From positions 4,980 to 68,979 of the forward strand of contig PCXK01000001.1 of assembly GCA_002787635.1 (NCBI GenBank): a DNA stretch of 64,000 bases, in the 5' to 3' direction. The position numbers were made by a program, and so were the translations under genes. The notes under the pieces were generated by a model. The model ran no database searches and had not been told where the DNA came from. It saw nothing but the letters and a program-made list of their open reading frames with translations. The stretch is from Alphaproteobacteria bacterium CG11_big_fil_rev_8_21_14_0_20_39_49 (GTDB taxonomy: Bacteria; Pseudomonadota; Alphaproteobacteria; Rickettsiales; UBA6187). This document shows, piece after piece, positions 28,512-35,191 of the stretch (position 1 is the first letter of the stretch; each line of letters starts with the position of its first letter).

Positions 28512-28898
28512 ATGAATTTTATAACTAAAACTAAAGAGATTACTAGCTACTGTAAAGCTAGATTTAATCTTGACAGTGGTACTTTCGGTACTACATTTAC
28601 ATTTATGCTATTGGCACTGGTTGCTTTAGCACCAAATGAAGCAATGGCAGCTGATGCAGATGGAATGGGACAAGTTGTTTGTAACATTATCGACGAGTTA
28701 CAAGGTCCTGTTGCACGTGGTGTGGCTGCATTCGGTATTATCTTCTTGGGTTTCTCGTTATTCCTTGGTAAGATATCTTGGGGTGTAGCACTAGCACTTG
28801 GTATTGGTATTGCAGCGATTTTCGGTGCAGAAACAATCGTAGACGCTATGCTGGGTAACACAGGTACAGCTTGTACTGAGACTGATGTTATAACCTAA
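28512..28898 (+). CDS. virB2: VirB2/TrbC-family T4SS pilin
   Basis: 128-aa ORF with GGAGG 7 nt upstream. Long leader ending ...APNEAMA|AD, then two hydrophobic helices (VAAFGIIFLGFSLFLG; VALALGIGIAAIFGA). Sits directly upstream of virB4. Confidence 0.7.
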   Translation: MNFITKTKEITSYCKARFNLDSGTFGTTFTFMLLALVALAPNEAMAADADGMGQVVCNIIDELQGPVARGVAAFGIIFLGFSLFLGKISWGVALALGIGIAAIFGAETIVDAMLGNTGTACTETDVIT

Positions 28899-28926
28899 TA
28901 TAGTGCGATTAATATCGCAAATATTA

Positions 28927-28955
28927 AACGGAGGGTTTTACCCTCCGTTTTTTTA
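28927..28955 (+). terminator. rho-independent terminator/attenuator after virB2
   Basis: ACGGAGGG-tttta-CCCTCCGT (8-bp perfect GC-rich stem) followed by TTTTTTT. Confidence 0.7.
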
Positions 28956-31539: not shown

Positions 31540-34500
31540 TTCGTGTAAAAAGATAATTACCTTTCTGGTAGTTTTCTCTTTTTTTACCTTGTTTGCTCAA
31601 GAGTCGCATGCTTTGGAATGTTACGGTGATTTTAACCCGGGTGACCCTGAATATGACTCTATCGAAGTTCCCAAACATACCAGAACGATAGGTCTTATAG
31701 AGCAGGGAGTCTGCGAGCCTAAGGCTGAGGAAAATACATGGTATGAACCCCGTATCCGAATTGCTTACAAGCCTTTTCGAAGAACTTTCAGAAGAAACTT
31801 AGGACCTAATGAATGTAAGTGGATATTCGGTTTAAGGTTCTGTGCCAGAATGGCGTATCCTAAGGAAGGGGAAAATGTGCATGGAAATAGAACCGGGGAG
31901 CATTGTAGCACTTCAGATACTACTGAGGAGACGATATGTAAAGGAATGAAGCCGCAGTTGTGTGCCTATGTAGATCCTATGGACGGAGGTGATACCAACG
32001 GCGGATTTAGTCCGTATCATAAAAGAACCGATGTTACTACGCTATTTTCTACGACAACTGCAACAGCTACCGGAGCTGTAGTAGGTACTATACTATTGCC
32101 CGGAATCGGTACCGCATTAGGAGCCGCAATAGGCGGGTTGGTAAATGCTATAAAATCTAGGAAAAATCATTTTGTAACAGCCGATCTTGGCTGTATTGAC
32201 CGACCTATGGCGGCAGGACCTCCGGTGTGGAGTAACGAACAGTGGGACAGGGTTTATTTCCCTACACCATTCCTTGATTACGATTCTCCCTCAACGTTCA
32301 GACAGCCTGCTATACGTGTTTATTTCTGCCAGATTGACAGACCAGGTGGTGTTATATCGGAGAATGTGTTATGTGAATTTATGAAAGATGCAAACGGTGA
32401 GTATTTAAGAGGTCCTAACCCTCAGAATCCGAGTGCCGGACCGTTTGACCTTACCCCTGCACCGGGTATTCGTGTTCATGCTACAAGAAGTGCGACTATT
32501 GCTCCCGGGGTCCCTGATGCTGAAGTGGTAACTTCAGGTAATATTACGGGACCGTGGCAAAGAAGATTTGAAGCGAGGATAAGTTTTGAATATCCGGATT
32601 CTATCTGTCTGTTCAAGACAAATGAGGCTAATAGAACGGCGGTCGGTCCTCCTGCGACTTATGCGACCGGACGACCTGTCGAGATATTACAGGGGTGTAT
32701 CCCTAGACCCGGCTATATGCCTATGCCGAGAGTTCAGGAAGTGCCTATGACTGCTGATGCATTAGGTGACATTGCAATAGACGCAAATCCTGACAGGGGG
32801 ATTATGGGGCTTACACTCAGGGTTAGTTTTGACGGTATGCCCGGATCAATAGACTTACAATATATAGGTGACGTTGATACCGTAGGCGGAACGGTTTCGG
32901 CGGAGGACGCTCAGCCGCTACCAAGATGTGAGTTGTTGCATCAGATACCTTTCTGTGTAGCTCCGGGACCTATTTCAAGTCCTATAGTTAATTATTCAGA
33001 CACCGCCACTATGCCTGATCCTGACGATCCTACCGCTCCTGATATAAACCCGAACGGTGCAAGATATCGTGCATGGATGTGTGTAGAGGGCTATGATACG
33101 GCTCCTCTGGTTGCCGCCTCGCCTTATGTAGAGCCTTCAGGTAATGAAGATGATGTTGTTGCACCCGTATATGATGAAACCGGTCAACCGATCTTTGAGC
33201 CACCTTTATATATTCATGAAACCTGTGTTCCGGGGGGGGCTCATTGTACGGTTCCTTGTACAAGAGGTGTGGATTGTATCATAAACCCGGAAGCAAAACC
33301 GGTAACAAGACAATTGCTGTATTCTAAATTGATAAGGGGATATGATTCCGACCCGACAGATACTGCCGTAGATGATATGACATTGCCTCCGCATCCTAGT
33401 TCGGGTAATTTCCGTCCTGCCGGAGATATACCTAATAACTACGTTCCAAACGGAGTTCCGTTCGACAACCTTAACGCATATAGTGAAATTGGTGCCGGTG
33501 GTGTGGTTCTGCCGCCACAGGTGACGCTTGAAGTGCCGTCCTATCACTATAACCCTCCGATGAGCGATGTCGGTCCTCAGGATCCGTTCCTCATTACATT
33601 TGCGGCTACTCCTCCGCCGGACGTTACGCTTCCTGCGAAAAGACCCGTAGATGTAAATGACCCTTATTATATAGACGGCACTGCTAACGGTGCTATTGAT
33701 GGACCGGGGCGTTTTGATTATGATCAGCCGACCATTAACCCGCCTGATACTGACTTCGGATATAATCTGGGCGATATAGATGAGCTTGAGGAATATAATG
33801 AATTGCAGAAAACCGACCCTGCCATATTAAGACCTATGACACCTCTTGAGCTTGGTATGTGTGCCGAGGTAACTTTAGATGTTGAAAAGAGTTATACCCT
33901 AGAAGATAAGGCTATTTTCACATTCCCGACTGAAGAAGGTTTATTAAGGGTGAATTGGGACAATGACATTAGTATAAATGAGGTAATCAGACCTCATGAT
34001 CTGGTGAAGAATACTCTTGCCGAGGATACTGCTAATTTTGACGATGGTCAATTATGCAGTAAGCTGTTTGTTGAAGTTTGGGGTGCAGGTGGAGGCGGAA
34101 CAAGCCAGCCTGACAGATCGGGCGATTTTTCAGGTGGGGCAGGTGCGTATATAAGTGCCGAGTATGATCTAAAAGAGTTGGATCTTATAGATAAAACTCT
34201 GGAGATATCCGTCGGATTAGGCGGAAGAGTGATTTATCTTGGTGACGAAGATATAGTAGGTATTGACGGTACCAGAAGTACTTTCGGACCTAACCAGAAA
34301 ATGATAATTGCCAATGGTGGAAAAGGGCGGTCAGCTCGTTATTTTATTGACCCGATTACATTTGCCGGACAATTTCAGGAATTTGACCCTACAGCTCCCA
34401 ATCCGTCAGGCGGTTTAGGTGATTTTGTAGACGATTCCCTTGCCGATCCTGGCCCGGGAGATTCCGATGATTATAGTGGCGGACTATACACTGCATGTCA

Positions 34501-35191
34501 GGCAGGTTGTTTACACATTAATTCGATAAAAGGTCTCGATGGTGCCGGACATGATACCGACTGTGCCGTGCTAGAAGGCGGTTATTATTATACCGGTGAA
34601 ACCGGAGATGCGGCTACCGCAAATCAATATGTAGGTGACGGTGCTTTAAAATGTGACCATACGGCAGGTAGTGATGATGCCGCTGCCAGAGATCCGGATT
34701 TATTTATAGATACGACTCTTGCTATAAATGCGACAGGCATTTTCAATCCTGAAAATCTAAACTTCAGTGAAGATGTAAATGCTATAATACCGTCCGCCGA
34801 TGAGGTGGTTATTACGGATCCAATGGGAAATGTAACACAAACCAAACCGGTAGGAACGCTATATCCCGGTGTGTATCAATTTTCAACAGACACATTGTTT
34901 AGACATCCTGCGGCAGGCGGCTGTGTAGCGGATAAGTGTGATTCAACTTGTCCTCCCAGTCTAAAACCATGTACTCTTCGCCTTCCTTTCGGTGCGGGCG
35001 GACCAAGGTGTTCTAGTGCACCTGCTGTTGTCTCGGGGCGTGCATGTTTGCTTCACGGTAACCATTCAAGACAACGTATTGCCGGTCTTGCTGCACCCGG
35101 ATCACATGGAAGGGTAAAGGTTCAGTGTATCGAATATCAGACAATAGATCCGCTGGGTACGGTCGATACTACAACGATACCTACGCCATAA
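31514..35191 (+). CDS. giant secreted Cys/Pro/Gly-rich protein with C-terminal glycine-rich domain; function unknown
   Basis: Uninterrupted ORF. ATG 31514 overlaps the virB4 stop (31537-31539) by 26 nt. Signal peptide MKNWNPDISSCKKIITFLVVFSFFTLFAQESHA|LE. One Gly-zipper hydrophobic segment (GAVVGTILLPGIGTALGAAIGGLV). About 33 Cys by my count. C-terminal VEVWGAGGGG...GGAGAY...VGLGG...GGKG...GSHGRVKV. An alternative start at 31463 is possible. Confidence 0.6.
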   Translation: MKNWNPDISSCKKIITFLVVFSFFTLFAQESHALECYGDFNPGDPEYDSIEVPKHTRTIGLIEQGVCEPKAEENTWYEPRIRIAYKPFRRTFRRNLGPNECKWIFGLRFCARMAYPKEGENVHGNRTGEHCSTSDTTEETICKGMKPQLCAYVDPMDGGDTNGGFSPYHKRTDVTTLFSTTTATATGAVVGTILLPGIGTALGAAIGGLVNAIKSRKNHFVTADLGCIDRPMAAGPPVWSNEQWDRVYFPTPFLDYDSPSTFRQPAIRVYFCQIDRPGGVISENVLCEFMKDANGEYLRGPNPQNPSAGPFDLTPAPGIRVHATRSATIAPGVPDAEVVTSGNITGPWQRRFEARISFEYPDSICLFKTNEANRTAVGPPATYATGRPVEILQGCIPRPGYMPMPRVQEVPMTADALGDIAIDANPDRGIMGLTLRVSFDGMPGSIDLQYIGDVDTVGGTVSAEDAQPLPRCELLHQIPFCVAPGPISSPIVNYSDTATMPDPDDPTAPDINPNGARYRAWMCVEGYDTAPLVAASPYVEPSGNEDDVVAPVYDETGQPIFEPPLYIHETCVPGGAHCTVPCTRGVDCIINPEAKPVTRQLLYSKLIRGYDSDPTDTAVDDMTLPPHPSSGNFRPAGDIPNNYVPNGVPFDNLNAYSEIGAGGVVLPPQVTLEVPSYHYNPPMSDVGPQDPFLITFAATPPPDVTLPAKRPVDVNDPYYIDGTANGAIDGPGRFDYDQPTINPPDTDFGYNLGDIDELEEYNELQKTDPAILRPMTPLELGMCAEVTLDVEKSYTLEDKAIFTFPTEEGLLRVNWDNDISINEVIRPHDLVKNTLAEDTANFDDGQLCSKLFVEVWGAGGGGTSQPDRSGDFSGGAGAYISAEYDLKELDLIDKTLEISVGLGGRVIYLGDEDIVGIDGTRSTFGPNQKMIIANGGKGRSARYFIDPITFAGQFQEFDPTAPNPSGGLGDFVDDSLADPGPGDSDDYSGGLYTACQAGCLHINSIKGLDGAGHDTDCAVLEGGYYYTGETGDAATANQYVGDGALKCDHTAGSDDAAARDPDLFIDTTLAINATGIFNPENLNFSEDVNAIIPSADEVVITDPMGNVTQTKPVGTLYPGVYQFSTDTLFRHPAAGGCVADKCDSTCPPSLKPCTLRLPFGAGGPRCSSAPAVVSGRACLLHGNHSRQRIAGLAAPGSHGRVKVQCIEYQTIDPLGTVDTTTIPTP

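What the first reader, a model, noticed from the sequence alone, without database searches (positions are those of the whole stretch)
28512..35191. Orphan virB2-virB4 module coupled to a giant non-VirB6 secreted protein
The only T4SS genes in this window are a VirB2/TrbC-type pilin and a VirB4 ATPase.
- No VirB3 ORF fits in the 142-bp gap, and VirB4 has no N-terminal TM helices, so it is not a VirB3 fusion.
- VirB5/TrbJ or VirB6/TrbL would normally follow virB4. Instead there is a 1,225-aa signal-peptide-bearing protein with no multi-TM architecture.
- Its ATG (31514) lies 26 nt inside the end of virB4, which suggests translational coupling and stoichiometric co-expression.
- The trio sits between housekeeping genes (rodZ-like, miaB). 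No integrase, relaxase or coupling protein is nearby, so it does not look like a conjugative element.

The giant protein could be a lineage-specific pilus-tip adhesin or surface component of a VirB-type apparatus.
Basis: partly seen in the sequence, partly recalled or inferred. Interest (0 to 1): 0.75.

Follow-up and report, generated by a model that had tools for sequence, protein, structure and literature searches.

The report
T4SS pilin-ATPase islet with giant adhesin-like partner
An environmental Rickettsiales-like bacterium carries a small, stand-alone piece of a type IV secretion system (pilin plus VirB4 motor) whose motor gene is fused by overlap to a large, exported, cysteine-rich protein that ends in a phage-tail-fibre-like binding domain, a conserved but undescribed partner that probably helps the machine recognise target cells.

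Summary
virB2/TrbC (28512-28898), virB4 (29041/29047-31539) and a 1,225-aa signal-peptide protein (31514-35191) are real, and the last two overlap by 26 nt. No other T4SS, relaxase, coupling-protein or integrase gene occurs among the window's ORFs of at least 150 aa.

The "orphan" virB2-virB4 layout is not new. It is the split-islet architecture of the Rickettsiales rvh system, as in the Anaplasma "virB2s + virB4-2" cluster, and the closest genomes are Rickettsiales MAGs.

What looks undescribed is the large protein. It belongs to a rare family (61 representatives among 1.84 billion). Every member whose context I could read or infer lies directly after this VirB4 clade, in 9 genomes read directly and 3 more inferred from matching contig lengths. 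In related clusters that slot holds VirB6/TrbL.

- It is exported and has 32 Cys in the mature chain.
- It has a confidently modelled N-terminal domain with no PDB fold match, a glycine-zipper-like hydrophobic helical hairpin and a Pro-rich linker.
- Its C-terminal glycine-rich domain matches phage tail-fibre tips and the ALK ligand-binding domain.

The best reading is a T4SS-coupled surface or pilus-associated adhesin, which is inferred and not shown. I could not test RvhB4-II membership phylogenetically, and the Walker motifs are intact. Interest is moderate.

The parts
24079..25923 (-). dCache sensor histidine kinase, a conserved upstream neighbour; a functional link is not shown
   Evidence: Pfam dCache_1, HisKA and HATPase_c. 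The same gene sits upstream in L001, L003, L004 and L007. Another histidine kinase directly precedes VirB4 in the P0079 contig and in L015.
27647..28336 (+). HTH_25 (RodZ-like) membrane protein, a conserved upstream neighbour
   Evidence: Pfam HTH_25 at 4.8e-18. An HTH_25 gene also lies directly upstream of the VirB4-giant pair in distant loci L007 and L008, which lack virB2.
28512..28898 (+). VirB2/TrbC-type pilin precursor (128 aa) with a long leader and two hydrophobic helices
   Evidence: Pfam TrbC at 7.4e-19, 68.2 bits against cutoff 27.9. Hydrophobic segments at aa 22-47 and 63-115. Orthologues sit in the same place in L001 (two copies) and L003.
28926..28950 (+). Intrinsic terminator hairpin plus T-run directly after virB2
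   Evidence: 11-bp stem with 6 GC pairs, followed by TTTTTTT. An equivalent hairpin follows virB2 in L001 (both copies), L003 and L018.
29041..31539 (+). VirB4-family ATPase (832 aa from the GTG, or 830 aa from the ATG at 29047). Walker A is at 30424-30447 and Walker B at 31063-31080. There is no VirB3 fusion.
   Evidence: Pfam CagE_TrbE_VirB at 5e-32. NCBIfam PRK13898 643 bits (cutoff 1050) and TIGR00929 593 bits (cutoff 643). GPRGMGKT and VLDEAW are intact. No hydrophobic segment.
31426..31454 (+). Promoter-like site (TTGTCA-17-TATAAT with extended TG) inside the 3' end of virB4, about 60 nt before the start of the big gene
   Evidence: 11 of 12 consensus match. The hexamers are identical in window, L001 and L003, although those VirB4 proteins are only about 70% identical. 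This is a consensus match only, and coding constraint is not excluded.
31514..35191 (+). Large exported Cys-rich protein (1,225 aa), overlapping virB4 by 26 nt; founding member here of a VirB4-linked family
   Evidence: The family numbers 61 representatives among 1.84 billion. It is linked to virB4 in every context examined.
31514..31612 (+). Predicted Sec signal peptide (aa 1-33, ...SHA|LE)
   Evidence: Hydrophobic core at aa 8-32. An N-terminal hydrophobic segment is present in most family members. The cleavage site is my reading, not a predictor output.
31670..33112 (+). Family-defining N-terminal beta-rich, disulfide-rich domain with no known fold relative
   Evidence: The conserved motifs are RFCAR, PQLCAYxDPMDGxDT, NHxV...LGCxDRP.A.GPP.W, RPGYMP.P and LHQIxFCA. 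AF2 on this domain gives pLDDT 75.8 and pTM 0.73. The best PDB Foldseek hit has E 0.019, probability 0.10 and TM about 0.1. A PDB profile search found nothing.
32051..32152 (+). Gly/Ala-rich hydrophobic helical hairpin (aa 180-213), glycine-zipper-like
   Evidence: Kyte-Doolittle 1.9. AF2 helices at mature residues 147-161 and 166-181, with low pLDDT of 53-66. Weak Gly-zipper_Omp hit at 0.014. The segment is present, with variable length, in most family members.
33563..33817 (+). Pro/Asp-rich linker of low model confidence
   Evidence: AF2 pLDDT is below 50 for mature residues 651-735. This region is variable and rich in indels in the family alignment.
34034..34606 (+). Glycine-rich domain (Gly_rich_2), the fold of phage tail-fibre tips and of the ALK/LTK ligand-binding domain
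   Evidence: Pfam PF21722 at 2.5e-8, 34.7 bits against cutoff 24.3, and it hits 14 of 18 family members. Foldseek PDB hits are Bxb1 tail tip (9e-4), Pam3 fibre (6e-3) and ALK GRD. BFVD gives 55 hits at E <= 1e-3, mostly glycine-rich or tail proteins. PHROG 863, category tail.
35381..35401 (+). Terminator-like hairpin in the spacer between the big gene and convergent miaB
   Evidence: 9-bp stem with 5 GC pairs. miaB at 35460-36809 is on the minus strand.

Best explanation
This is one islet of a split, Rickettsiales-type (rvh-like) P-type type IV secretion system in a flagellated environmental alphaproteobacterium.

It holds a VirB2 pilin gene with its own terminator. Next comes a VirB4-family ATPase with intact Walker motifs. 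VirB4 is translationally coupled to a lineage-restricted exported protein that sits where VirB6/TrbL sits in related clusters.

Proposed mechanism (inferred):
- The big protein is exported by Sec and folds with about 16 disulfides in the periplasm.
- It is held or handed over through its glycine-zipper-like hydrophobic hairpin.
- With the VirB2 pilus and the VirB4 motor it becomes a surface or pilus-associated component.
- Its distal glycine-rich, tail-fibre-tip-like domain then binds a receptor on the target cell (bacterium or protist). In function this would fill the adhesin or minor-pilin role that rvh systems lack, since they have no VirB5.

Shown:
- gene identities
- the overlap between virB4 and the big gene
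- conserved linkage
- domain architecture
- fold of the C-terminal domain

Inferred:
- export
- localisation
- adhesin function
- dependence on VirB4
For: - **Gene identities.**
- **Lineage.** The closest VirB4 loci come from Rickettsiales MAGs, and some hits carry Rickettsiales or Rickettsiaceae names.
- **Published rvh architecture.** It has virB2s+virB4-2 and solo virB4b islets and no VirB5 (PMC3556328, PMC2653234, PMC4676284, PMC11077975).
- **Linkage read directly in 9 genomes.** These are window/L004-6, L001/2, L003, L007, L008, L009, the P0079 contig, L014 and L018. Flanks differ among them (miaB, transporter, IspA, flagellar genes, phasin, AddB).
- **Linkage inferred in 3 more genomes.** The contig lengths of giant and VirB4 hits are equal for P0004/P0072, P0005/P0071 and P0008/P0080. 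The P0026/P0099 pair also matches, but P0099 is near-identical to L007's VirB4, so it is not counted as independent.
- **Conserved start overlap.** A 26-nt overlap occurs in four sequenced junctions, plus one seen from gene coordinates only, and a 20-nt overlap in L018.
- **Same slot as TrbL.** In sister loci the gene coupled to virB4 is TrbL/VirB6 (L016, L017). In L019 and L020 virB8-B11 and D4 follow it.
- **Periplasmic or extracellular chemistry.** The protein has a signal peptide and 32 Cys in the mature chain, many of them invariant.
- **C-terminal GRD.** It matches tail-fibre tips and the ALK ligand-binding domain.
- **Variable C-terminus.** C-terminal modules vary across the family (L018 has no GRD) while the N-domain is conserved, as expected for a receptor-binding protein.
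- **Native composition.**
Against: - There is no experimental or expression data.
- The N-terminal domain has no similarity to any T4SS component or adhesin.
- The hydrophobic hairpin is short or weak in some members (P0003-P0005) and has low pLDDT, so its membrane role is uncertain.
- virB2 is absent next to the pair in L007, L008 and the P0079 contig, so a pilus link is not obligatory at the locus level.
- The rest of the T4SS (B3, B6, B8-B11, D4) was not located for this genome.
- Deep nodes of the VirB4 tree have under 50% bootstrap support.
- A Rickettsiaceae MAG has this VirB4 type without the big gene.
Confidence: 0.55

Rival explanations
1. The big protein is a structural replacement for VirB6. 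It would be anchored by its hydrophobic hairpin in the inner membrane, with both large domains in the periplasm, and would form the stalk or platform on which VirB2 is polymerised by this VirB4. On this reading it is not primarily an adhesin.
For: - It occupies exactly the VirB6/TrbL slot, translationally coupled to virB4.
- rvh VirB6 proteins are also unusually large (PMC3556328).
- A hydrophobic hairpin lies between two exported domains.
Against: - There is no sequence or profile similarity to TrbL.
- It has one hairpin at most, against five or more TM segments in the neighbouring-clade TrbL proteins.
- The hairpin is reduced to a single weak helix in P0003-P0005.
- A tail-fibre-tip GRD and a variable C-terminus fit surface exposure better.
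Confidence: 0.15
2. The big protein is a substrate rather than a part of the machine. It would be a Sec-exported, disulfide-bonded toxin or effector released from the periplasm by the T4SS in two steps, as pertussis toxin is released by Ptl.
For: - It has a signal peptide and many disulfides, like pertussis toxin subunits (my knowledge of the Ptl system).
- It is tightly linked to T4SS genes.
- Basal Rickettsiales T4SSs have been proposed to act against bacteria or protists (PMC9352585).
Against: - No toxin, enzyme or pore domain was detected above noise. The single TcdA/TcdB pore hit is at E 0.022 in 1 of 18 members.
- The C-terminal GRD is a binding module.
- Translational coupling to an ATPase is more typical of machine subunits.
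Confidence: 0.15
3. The linkage is historical only. The big protein would be an envelope or biofilm adhesin unrelated to type IV secretion that happens to be inherited next to a decaying VirB4 paralogue.
For: - RvhB4-II is thought to be non-canonical and of unknown role (PMC4676284).
- The N-domain resembles no T4SS part.
- Upstream synteny (histidine kinase, HTH_25) is also conserved, so old synteny exists in this region.
Against: - Downstream flanks differ in nearly every lineage, yet the pair stays together.
- The start overlap is conserved.
- VirB4 keeps intact Walker A and B motifs in this clade, so it is not decaying.
Confidence: 0.1

Closest known systems
Rickettsiales vir homolog (rvh) T4SS islets: the Anaplasmataceae 'virB2 paralogs + virB4-2' cluster and the solo Rickettsia virB4b/RvhB4-II
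   Same: - It is a chromosomal P-type T4SS split into scattered islets.
- A VirB4 gene lies away from virB3, virB6 and virB8-D4, next to virB2.
- No VirB5 is present.
- The closest genomes are Rickettsiales MAGs (PMC3556328, PMC2653234, PMC11077975).
   Different: - Here VirB4 keeps canonical Walker A and B motifs, whereas RvhB4-II is described as lacking conserved ATPase sites (PMC4676284).
- It is coupled to a large exported protein not reported for rvh. I found no paper describing it.
- The paralogue assignment was not confirmed by phylogeny.
VirB6/TrbL, including the enlarged RvhB6 proteins of Rickettsiales
   Same: - The gene position is the same, directly after virB4 and coupled to it.
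- The protein is large.
- In Rickettsiales VirB6 has been proposed to be surface-exposed (PMC3556328).
   Different: - There is no TrbL domain and hhalign gives probability 0.2%.
- It has one hydrophobic hairpin instead of a polytopic core.
- It has 33 Cys, against 7-13 in the TrbL proteins of L016, L017 and L019.
VirB5/TrbJ minor pilin and pilus-tip adhesin
   Same: - It is Sec-exported, encoded next to virB4, and has a proposed role in target contact.
- It would fill the role missing in rvh systems, which have no VirB5 analogue (PMC11077975).
   Different: - It is about five times larger and mostly beta rather than a helical bundle.
- There is no sequence or fold match.
F-type TraN mating-pair stabilisation protein
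   Same: It is a large, signal-peptide-bearing, cysteine-rich protein encoded within T4SS genes that recognises surface receptors of the partner cell. This description of TraN comes from my own knowledge, not from a test here.
   Different: - There is no Pfam TraN hit in any of the 18 members scanned.
- There is no PDB fold match.
- The system is P-type, not F-type.
Phage tail-fibre or minor-tail proteins with a C-terminal glycine-rich domain (Pam3 fibre, Bxb1 tail tip), and the ALK/LTK GRD
   Same: The C-terminal domain has the same fold and the same Pfam family, Gly_rich_2. In Pam3 the domain forms the receptor-binding fibre tip (PMC9608196, title and abstract).
   Different: - It is encoded in a cellular T4SS islet with native codon composition.
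- It is attached to a large N-terminal domain that phages lack.
- There are no phage genes nearby.

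Membership tests
VirB2/TrbC pilin (PF04956) | Pfam TrbC match above the gathering score | tested here: met
   68.2 bits against 27.9.
VirB2/TrbC pilin (PF04956) | Long leader peptide followed by two hydrophobic helices in a product of about 80-90 aa | tested here: met
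   Hydrophobic segments at aa 22-47 (leader) and 63-115. The sequence is shown.
VirB4 ATPase | CagE_TrbE_VirB domain plus a C-terminal P-loop domain with Walker A and B | tested here: met
   PF03135 at 5e-32 and P-loop_TraG at 1e-11. GPRGMGKT at aa 462-469 and VLDEAW at aa 675-680.
VirB4 ATPase | Reaches the NCBIfam curated cutoffs (TIGR00929 643 bits; PRK13898 1050 bits) | tested here: not met
   593 and 643 bits, with full-length alignments. It is a divergent member of the family.
RvhB4-II (second VirB4 paralogue of the Rickettsiales rvh T4SS) | The genome also encodes RvhB4-I next to rvhB3 and rvhB6 copies, with duplicated rvhB8 and rvhB9 | not testable with these tools
RvhB4-II (second VirB4 paralogue of the Rickettsiales rvh T4SS) | Located apart from virB3, virB6 and virB8-D4; adjacent to virB2 in Anaplasmataceae | tested here: met
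   No other vir gene in the window. virB2 lies directly upstream. The published layout is in PMC3556328 and PMC2653234.
RvhB4-II (second VirB4 paralogue of the Rickettsiales rvh T4SS) | Degenerate NTP-binding residues | tested here: not met
   Walker A and B are canonical here and in nearly all of 115 relatives. Other cleft residues were not assessed. The published feature is in PMC4676284 and PMC2653234.
RvhB4-II (second VirB4 paralogue of the Rickettsiales rvh T4SS) | Falls in the RvhB4-II clade in a tree with reference RvhB4-I and RvhB4-II sequences | not tested
   No reference sequences could be fetched. My NJ tree of hits has under 50% support at deep nodes.
VirB6/TrbL (PF04610) | TrbL domain with a polytopic core of five or more TM segments | tested here: not met
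   No TrbL hit. hhalign probability 0.2%. One hydrophobic hairpin only, against multiple segments in the L016, L017 and L019 TrbL proteins.
VirB5/TrbJ | About 220-aa exported helical-bundle protein with a Pfam VirB5-type match | tested here: not met
   1,225 aa, mostly beta. No such Pfam or PDB fold hit.
F-type TraN | Pfam TraN domain or fold | tested here: not met
   No hit in 18 members at E <= 0.1 and none among the Foldseek PDB matches.
Glycine-rich domain proteins (Gly_rich_2, PF21722; ALK/LTK-type GRD) | Pfam match above the gathering score | tested here: met
   34.7 bits against 24.3 at aa 841-1031. 14 of 18 family members match, best at 3e-18.
Glycine-rich domain proteins (Gly_rich_2, PF21722; ALK/LTK-type GRD) | Fold similarity to solved GRDs | tested here: met
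   Foldseek probabilities are 0.97-1.00 to the Bxb1 tail tip, the Pam3 fibre and the ALK GRD. E-values run from 9e-4 to 3e-2, and TM scores are low because the query was the whole 1,192-aa model. 55 BFVD hits at E <= 1e-3.
Conjugative or integrative element | Relaxase, coupling protein (VirD4/TraG), integrase, and a compositional break | tested here: not met
   None among the ORFs scanned. GC3 matches the neighbours. The flanks are syntenic housekeeping genes in three divergent genomes.

The most novel reading that the evidence does not exclude
The big protein would define a new class of T4SS component. It would be a giant, disulfide-rich "pilin-hairpin adhesin" that took over the VirB6 slot. 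A dedicated VirB4 paralogue would extract or mount it, so that it caps or decorates the VirB2 pilus with an exchangeable receptor-binding tip.

If this VirB4 is the ancestral, still-active form of RvhB4-II, it would give the long-unexplained rvh-II duplication of Rickettsiales a concrete ancestral function: biogenesis of the adhesin or pilus for contact with prey or host. That function would then have been lost, together with the big gene, in the classical intracellular lineages.
Probability: 0.2. Interest if true: 0.8.

Novelty: new variant of a known kind. Interest (0 to 1): 0.55.

Why it matters
The role of the duplicated "rvh-II" genes, including the second VirB4, has been an open question in rickettsial biology since 2009. 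So has the way a T4SS without VirB5 contacts its targets.

A conserved exported partner is hard-wired to this VirB4 type in environmental, flagellated relatives. It ends in a phage-like receptor-binding domain. That gives a concrete, testable candidate for the contact or adhesin function, and for what the paralogue did before host restriction.

The N-terminal 500-residue domain is confidently modelled yet matches no solved fold, so it is also a target for structural work.

The virB2-virB4 islet itself is ordinary for this order and should not be read as an anomaly.

Tried and rejected
- **Exact look-up of the window VirB4.** It found nothing because of the GTG start. The 830-aa form is P0069.
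- **Word-indexed homologue search with the 60-sequence profile.** It returned only the same five proteins, so one search was wasted. Gly-rich words probably saturated the candidate list.
- **Metagenome scan.** The accepted one gave a single locus, L013, whose contig starts inside the big gene, so it is uninformative for linkage.
- **High-GC loci L010-L012.** These are canonical alphaproteobacterial virB clusters. They served only as an outgroup.
- **Derived VirB6 idea.** I rejected the idea that the big protein is a derived VirB6 at the sequence level.
- **Foreign or phage origin.** I rejected this for the high-GC 32-36 kb stretch, because GC3 equals that of the neighbours.
- **PDB searches.**
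  - The profile search found no hits.
  - Foldseek on the N-domain gave only low-probability beta-propeller-like noise.
- **RvhB4-I versus RvhB4-II.**
  - Gillespie 2010 (PMC2863512) is not held.
  - Table S1 of PMC11077975 lists accessions only.
  - The label "virB4 2" on P0164 may be an annotator's copy number rather than the paralogue name, so I did not use it.
  - The NJ bootstrap gave no support for deep nodes.
- **Pfam scan of the 60-sequence alignment.** It exceeded the residue limit, so I repeated it on 18 members.

Full report
**1. Observation**

ORF listing and translation confirm three co-directional genes.

- ORF 28512-28898 (128 aa) is a TrbC/VirB2 pilin. Pfam gives 7.4e-19 and 68 bits against a cutoff of 27.9. 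It has a long leader and two hydrophobic helices.
- ORF 29041-31539 (832 aa from the GTG, 830 aa from the ATG at 29047) is a full-length VirB4.
  - It matches CagE_TrbE_VirB at 5e-32.
  - It scores 643 bits on NCBIfam PRK13898 and 593 bits on TIGR00929. Both alignments are end to end but fall below the curated cutoffs.
  - Walker A (GPRGMGKT, aa 462-469) and Walker B (VLDEAW, aa 675-680) are intact.
  - There is no hydrophobic segment, so it is not a VirB3-VirB4 fusion.
- The 142-bp virB2-virB4 spacer contains no VirB3-sized ORF. It does contain a strong intrinsic terminator at 28926-28950.
- The third ORF runs to 35191.
  - Its ATG at 31514 lies 26 nt inside virB4.
  - The same TATATGAAAAA junction is found in L001, L003 and L009. 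The same 26-nt overlap is seen by coordinates on the P0079 contig.
  - This supports that start.
- Pfam scans of the other large ORFs covered the window. Precomputed annotation of the identical contig L004 covers about 21.5-45.2 kb. Together they show sugar and O-antigen genes, fatty-acid genes, two-component genes, ftsZ, motAB and other housekeeping genes. No further T4SS gene, relaxase, coupling protein or integrase appears.

**2. Lineage and the "orphan" module**

A scan of one genome per species with the VirB4 found its closest relatives (47-55% identity) in MAGs titled Rickettsiales, or in one case Alphaproteobacteria. The protein search returned hits named as Rickettsiales or Rickettsiaceae MAG proteins. 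The window also encodes MotA/MotB and type IV pilin-like proteins. That fits the flagellated, free-living-like basal Rickettsiales described by Schön et al. (PMC9352585).

In this order the P-type T4SS (rvh) is characteristically scattered in islets.

- Anaplasma has three clusters, one of which is "virB2's and virB4-2" (PMC3556328).
- The hallmarks are duplicated B4, B8 and B9, multicopy B6 and no VirB5 (PMC11077975).

A virB2-virB4 pair with no other vir genes nearby is therefore the known architecture and not an anomaly.

Whether this VirB4 is the RvhB4-II paralogue could not be settled.

- Its context fits.
- Its Walker motifs are intact, whereas RvhB4-II is described as lacking conserved ATPase sites (PMC4676284).
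- I had no reference sequences for a tree.

**3. The large protein is a family tightly bound to this VirB4 clade**

The word-indexed search found only four other clusters at 34-38% identity. An exhaustive profile search of 1.84 billion representatives found 61 proteins, 22 of them below 1e-30. Most are 750-1,250 aa long.

Direct inspection of contexts gave the following.

| Locus or contig | Arrangement |
|---|---|
| Window (= L004-6) | virB2-virB4-giant |
| L001/L002 | virB2 x2-virB4-giant |
| L003 | virB2-virB4-giant |
| L007, L008, L009 | virB4-giant |
| P0079 contig | HK-virB4-giant (P0006), then flagellar genes |
| L018 | virB2-virB4-family member without GRD (2e-92) |
| L014 | virB4-very divergent member (2e-7, same motif order, 63 Cys) |

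P0026/P0099 also match, but P0099 is near-identical to L007's VirB4. I did not see any member away from virB4.

Downstream flanks differ between lineages. They are miaB, a CitMHS transporter, IspA, flagellar genes, phasin and AddB. The pairing is therefore not just frozen synteny.

Upstream, an HTH_25/RodZ-like gene and a histidine kinase are also recurrent neighbours.

**4. What sits in this slot elsewhere**

More distant VirB4 relatives (38-43% identity) have other arrangements.

- L016 and L017: virB2(x1-3)-virB4-TrbL/VirB6.
- L019 and L020: virB2-virB4-virB6-virB8-virB9-virB10-virB11-virD4, contiguous.
- L015, a Rickettsiaceae MAG: a solo virB4.

In the TrbL loci that gene also overlaps the virB4 stop. 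The large protein therefore occupies the VirB6 position.

It is not a VirB6.

- There is no TrbL hit in the window protein or in 18 family members.
- hhalign gives probability 0.2%.
- It has a single hydrophobic hairpin, against the polytopic TrbL proteins.

In an outgroup-rooted NJ tree the giant-linked VirB4s group together, apart from the TrbL-linked ones. The deep nodes have under 50% bootstrap support. I treat this as compatible with the scenario and not as evidence for it.

**5. Anatomy of the protein**

- **Signal peptide.** Aa 1-33, followed by 32 Cys in the mature chain, many of them invariant across the family. This fits a periplasmic or extracellular, disulfide-bonded protein.
- **N-terminal domain.**
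  - It spans about 500 residues and carries the family motifs: RFCAR, PQLCAYxDPMDGxDT, NHxV..LGCxDRPxAxGPPxW, STFxxP, RPGYMPxP and LHQIxFCA.
  - AlphaFold2 with the 60-sequence alignment models it as a mainly beta domain. Modelled alone it gives pLDDT 75.8 and pTM 0.73. The full mature chain gives pLDDT 68 and pTM 0.63.
  - It has no meaningful match in the PDB. The best Foldseek hit has E 0.019 and probability 0.10, and the sequence profile finds nothing.
- **Hydrophobic hairpin.**
  - A Gly/Ala-rich hydrophobic stretch (aa 177-213) is inserted in the N-domain.
  - It is modelled as two helices at low confidence, with a weak glycine-zipper hit.
  - It is longer in distant members and reduced in P0003-P0005.
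- **Linker.** A Pro/Asp-rich, low-confidence linker follows.
- **C-terminal part.** This is a Gly_rich_2 domain.
  - Pfam gives 34.7 bits against 24.3, and 14 of 18 members match.
  - Its model matches the Bxb1 tail tip, the cyanophage Pam3 fibre and the ALK glycine-rich ligand-binding domain.
  - It also matches dozens of phage glycine-rich or tail proteins.
  - It matches a PHROG of the tail category.
  - L018's member replaces this module with other Cys-rich repeats.
  - A conserved N-domain with a swappable distal module is the pattern of receptor-binding proteins.
- **Composition.** The raised GC of 32-36 kb comes from codon positions 1 and 2. GC3 is 0.35, the same as the neighbours, so the gene is native.

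**6. Expression signals**

virB2 is followed by a terminator here and in L001 (both copies), L003 and L018. This suggests a highly expressed pilin unit with attenuated read-through.

virB4 and the large gene are coupled by overlap. In addition, a TTGTCA-17-TATAAT site with an extended TG lies at 31426-31454. The hexamers are identical in window, L001 and L003 despite about 70% protein identity. Coding constraint cannot be excluded. Promoter-like sites are not enriched in the region overall, with 14 found against 21 expected. Claims about stoichiometry are unsupported.

**7. Mechanism**

- **Best reading (0.55).** The protein is a T4SS-coupled exported surface or pilus-associated component whose distal GRD binds a receptor on the target cell. 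In function it would cover the adhesin or minor-pilin role that rvh systems lack.
  - The gene-level facts, the architecture and the C-terminal fold are shown.
  - Export, localisation, binding and dependence on VirB4 are inferred.
- **Rival: structural stand-in for VirB6, anchored by the hairpin (0.15).**
- **Rival: two-step secreted substrate in the manner of pertussis toxin and Ptl (0.15).**
- **Rival: unrelated envelope protein retained by history (0.10).**

**8. Comparison and novelty**

The islet is a member of a known kind, the Rickettsiales-type split T4SS. The partner protein family appears undescribed. Literature searches found nothing on it. It fails membership tests for VirB5, VirB6 and TraN, and only its C-terminal domain belongs to a known family. 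I rate the whole as a new variant of a known kind, of moderate interest. Interest would be higher if the VirB4 proves to be an active ancestral RvhB4-II.

Noticed in passing
window 24079-25923 (-) and 27647-28336 (+); L007 1422-3377 and 3674-4375; L008 405-866; L015 6597-7925: A sensor histidine kinase and an HTH_25/RodZ-like membrane protein recur directly upstream of this VirB4 type in genomes whose downstream flanks differ. This may be a regulatory link or simply old synteny.
   Followed up: partly
window 28926-28950; L001 after 6758 and after 7372; L003 after 7441; L018 after 7715: Every virB2 copy examined is followed by a strong intrinsic terminator. The pilin may therefore be a separate, attenuated transcription unit ahead of virB4.
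   Followed up: partly
window 31426-31454: A near-consensus sigma-70-like promoter (11 of 12, with extended -10 TG) lies inside the virB4 coding end. Its hexamers are identical in L001 and L003 although the proteins are only about 70% identical.
   Followed up: partly
L019 6700-18389; L020 7533-19446: Related uncultured genomes carry a compact contiguous virB2(x2-3)-virB4-virB6-virB8-virB9-virB10-virB11-virD4 cluster with no annotated virB3, virB5 or virB7. This could be an unsplit relative of the rvh system.
   Followed up: no
window 26112-27551 (+): A methyltransferase-like protein (weak Methyltransf_33/23 hits) has a long Ser-rich C-terminal tail. It is conserved between the histidine kinase and the HTH_25 gene in L001 and L003 as well.
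   Followed up: no
window 53531-54343 and 56978-57775 (+), flanking ftsZ at 55379-56947: Two proteins with the type IV pilin N-methylation motif flank ftsZ. An NtrC-type sigma-54 activator lies just upstream at 52051-53508.
   Followed up: no
window 59375-61215 (+) and 62278-62880 (-): MotA/MotB stator genes indicate a flagellated organism. A retropepsin-like aspartyl protease (gag-asp_proteas) recalls, from my own memory, the retropepsin-type protease of Rickettsia.
   Followed up: no
window 535-9013 and 45846-51844: There are two surface-sugar gene clusters. One has NeuB, DegT, cytidylyltransferase and a PseB-like dehydratase. The other has glycosyltransferases, a sugar transferase and a Wzy-type ligase. 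These point to nonulosonic-acid and O-antigen-type glycans.
   Followed up: no
window 35192-35459: The 268-bp spacer between the large gene and convergent miaB contains several hairpins, including ACTCTCCCTCAAGGGGAGAGT at 35381-35401. I did not examine it for small RNAs or repeats.
   Followed up: no
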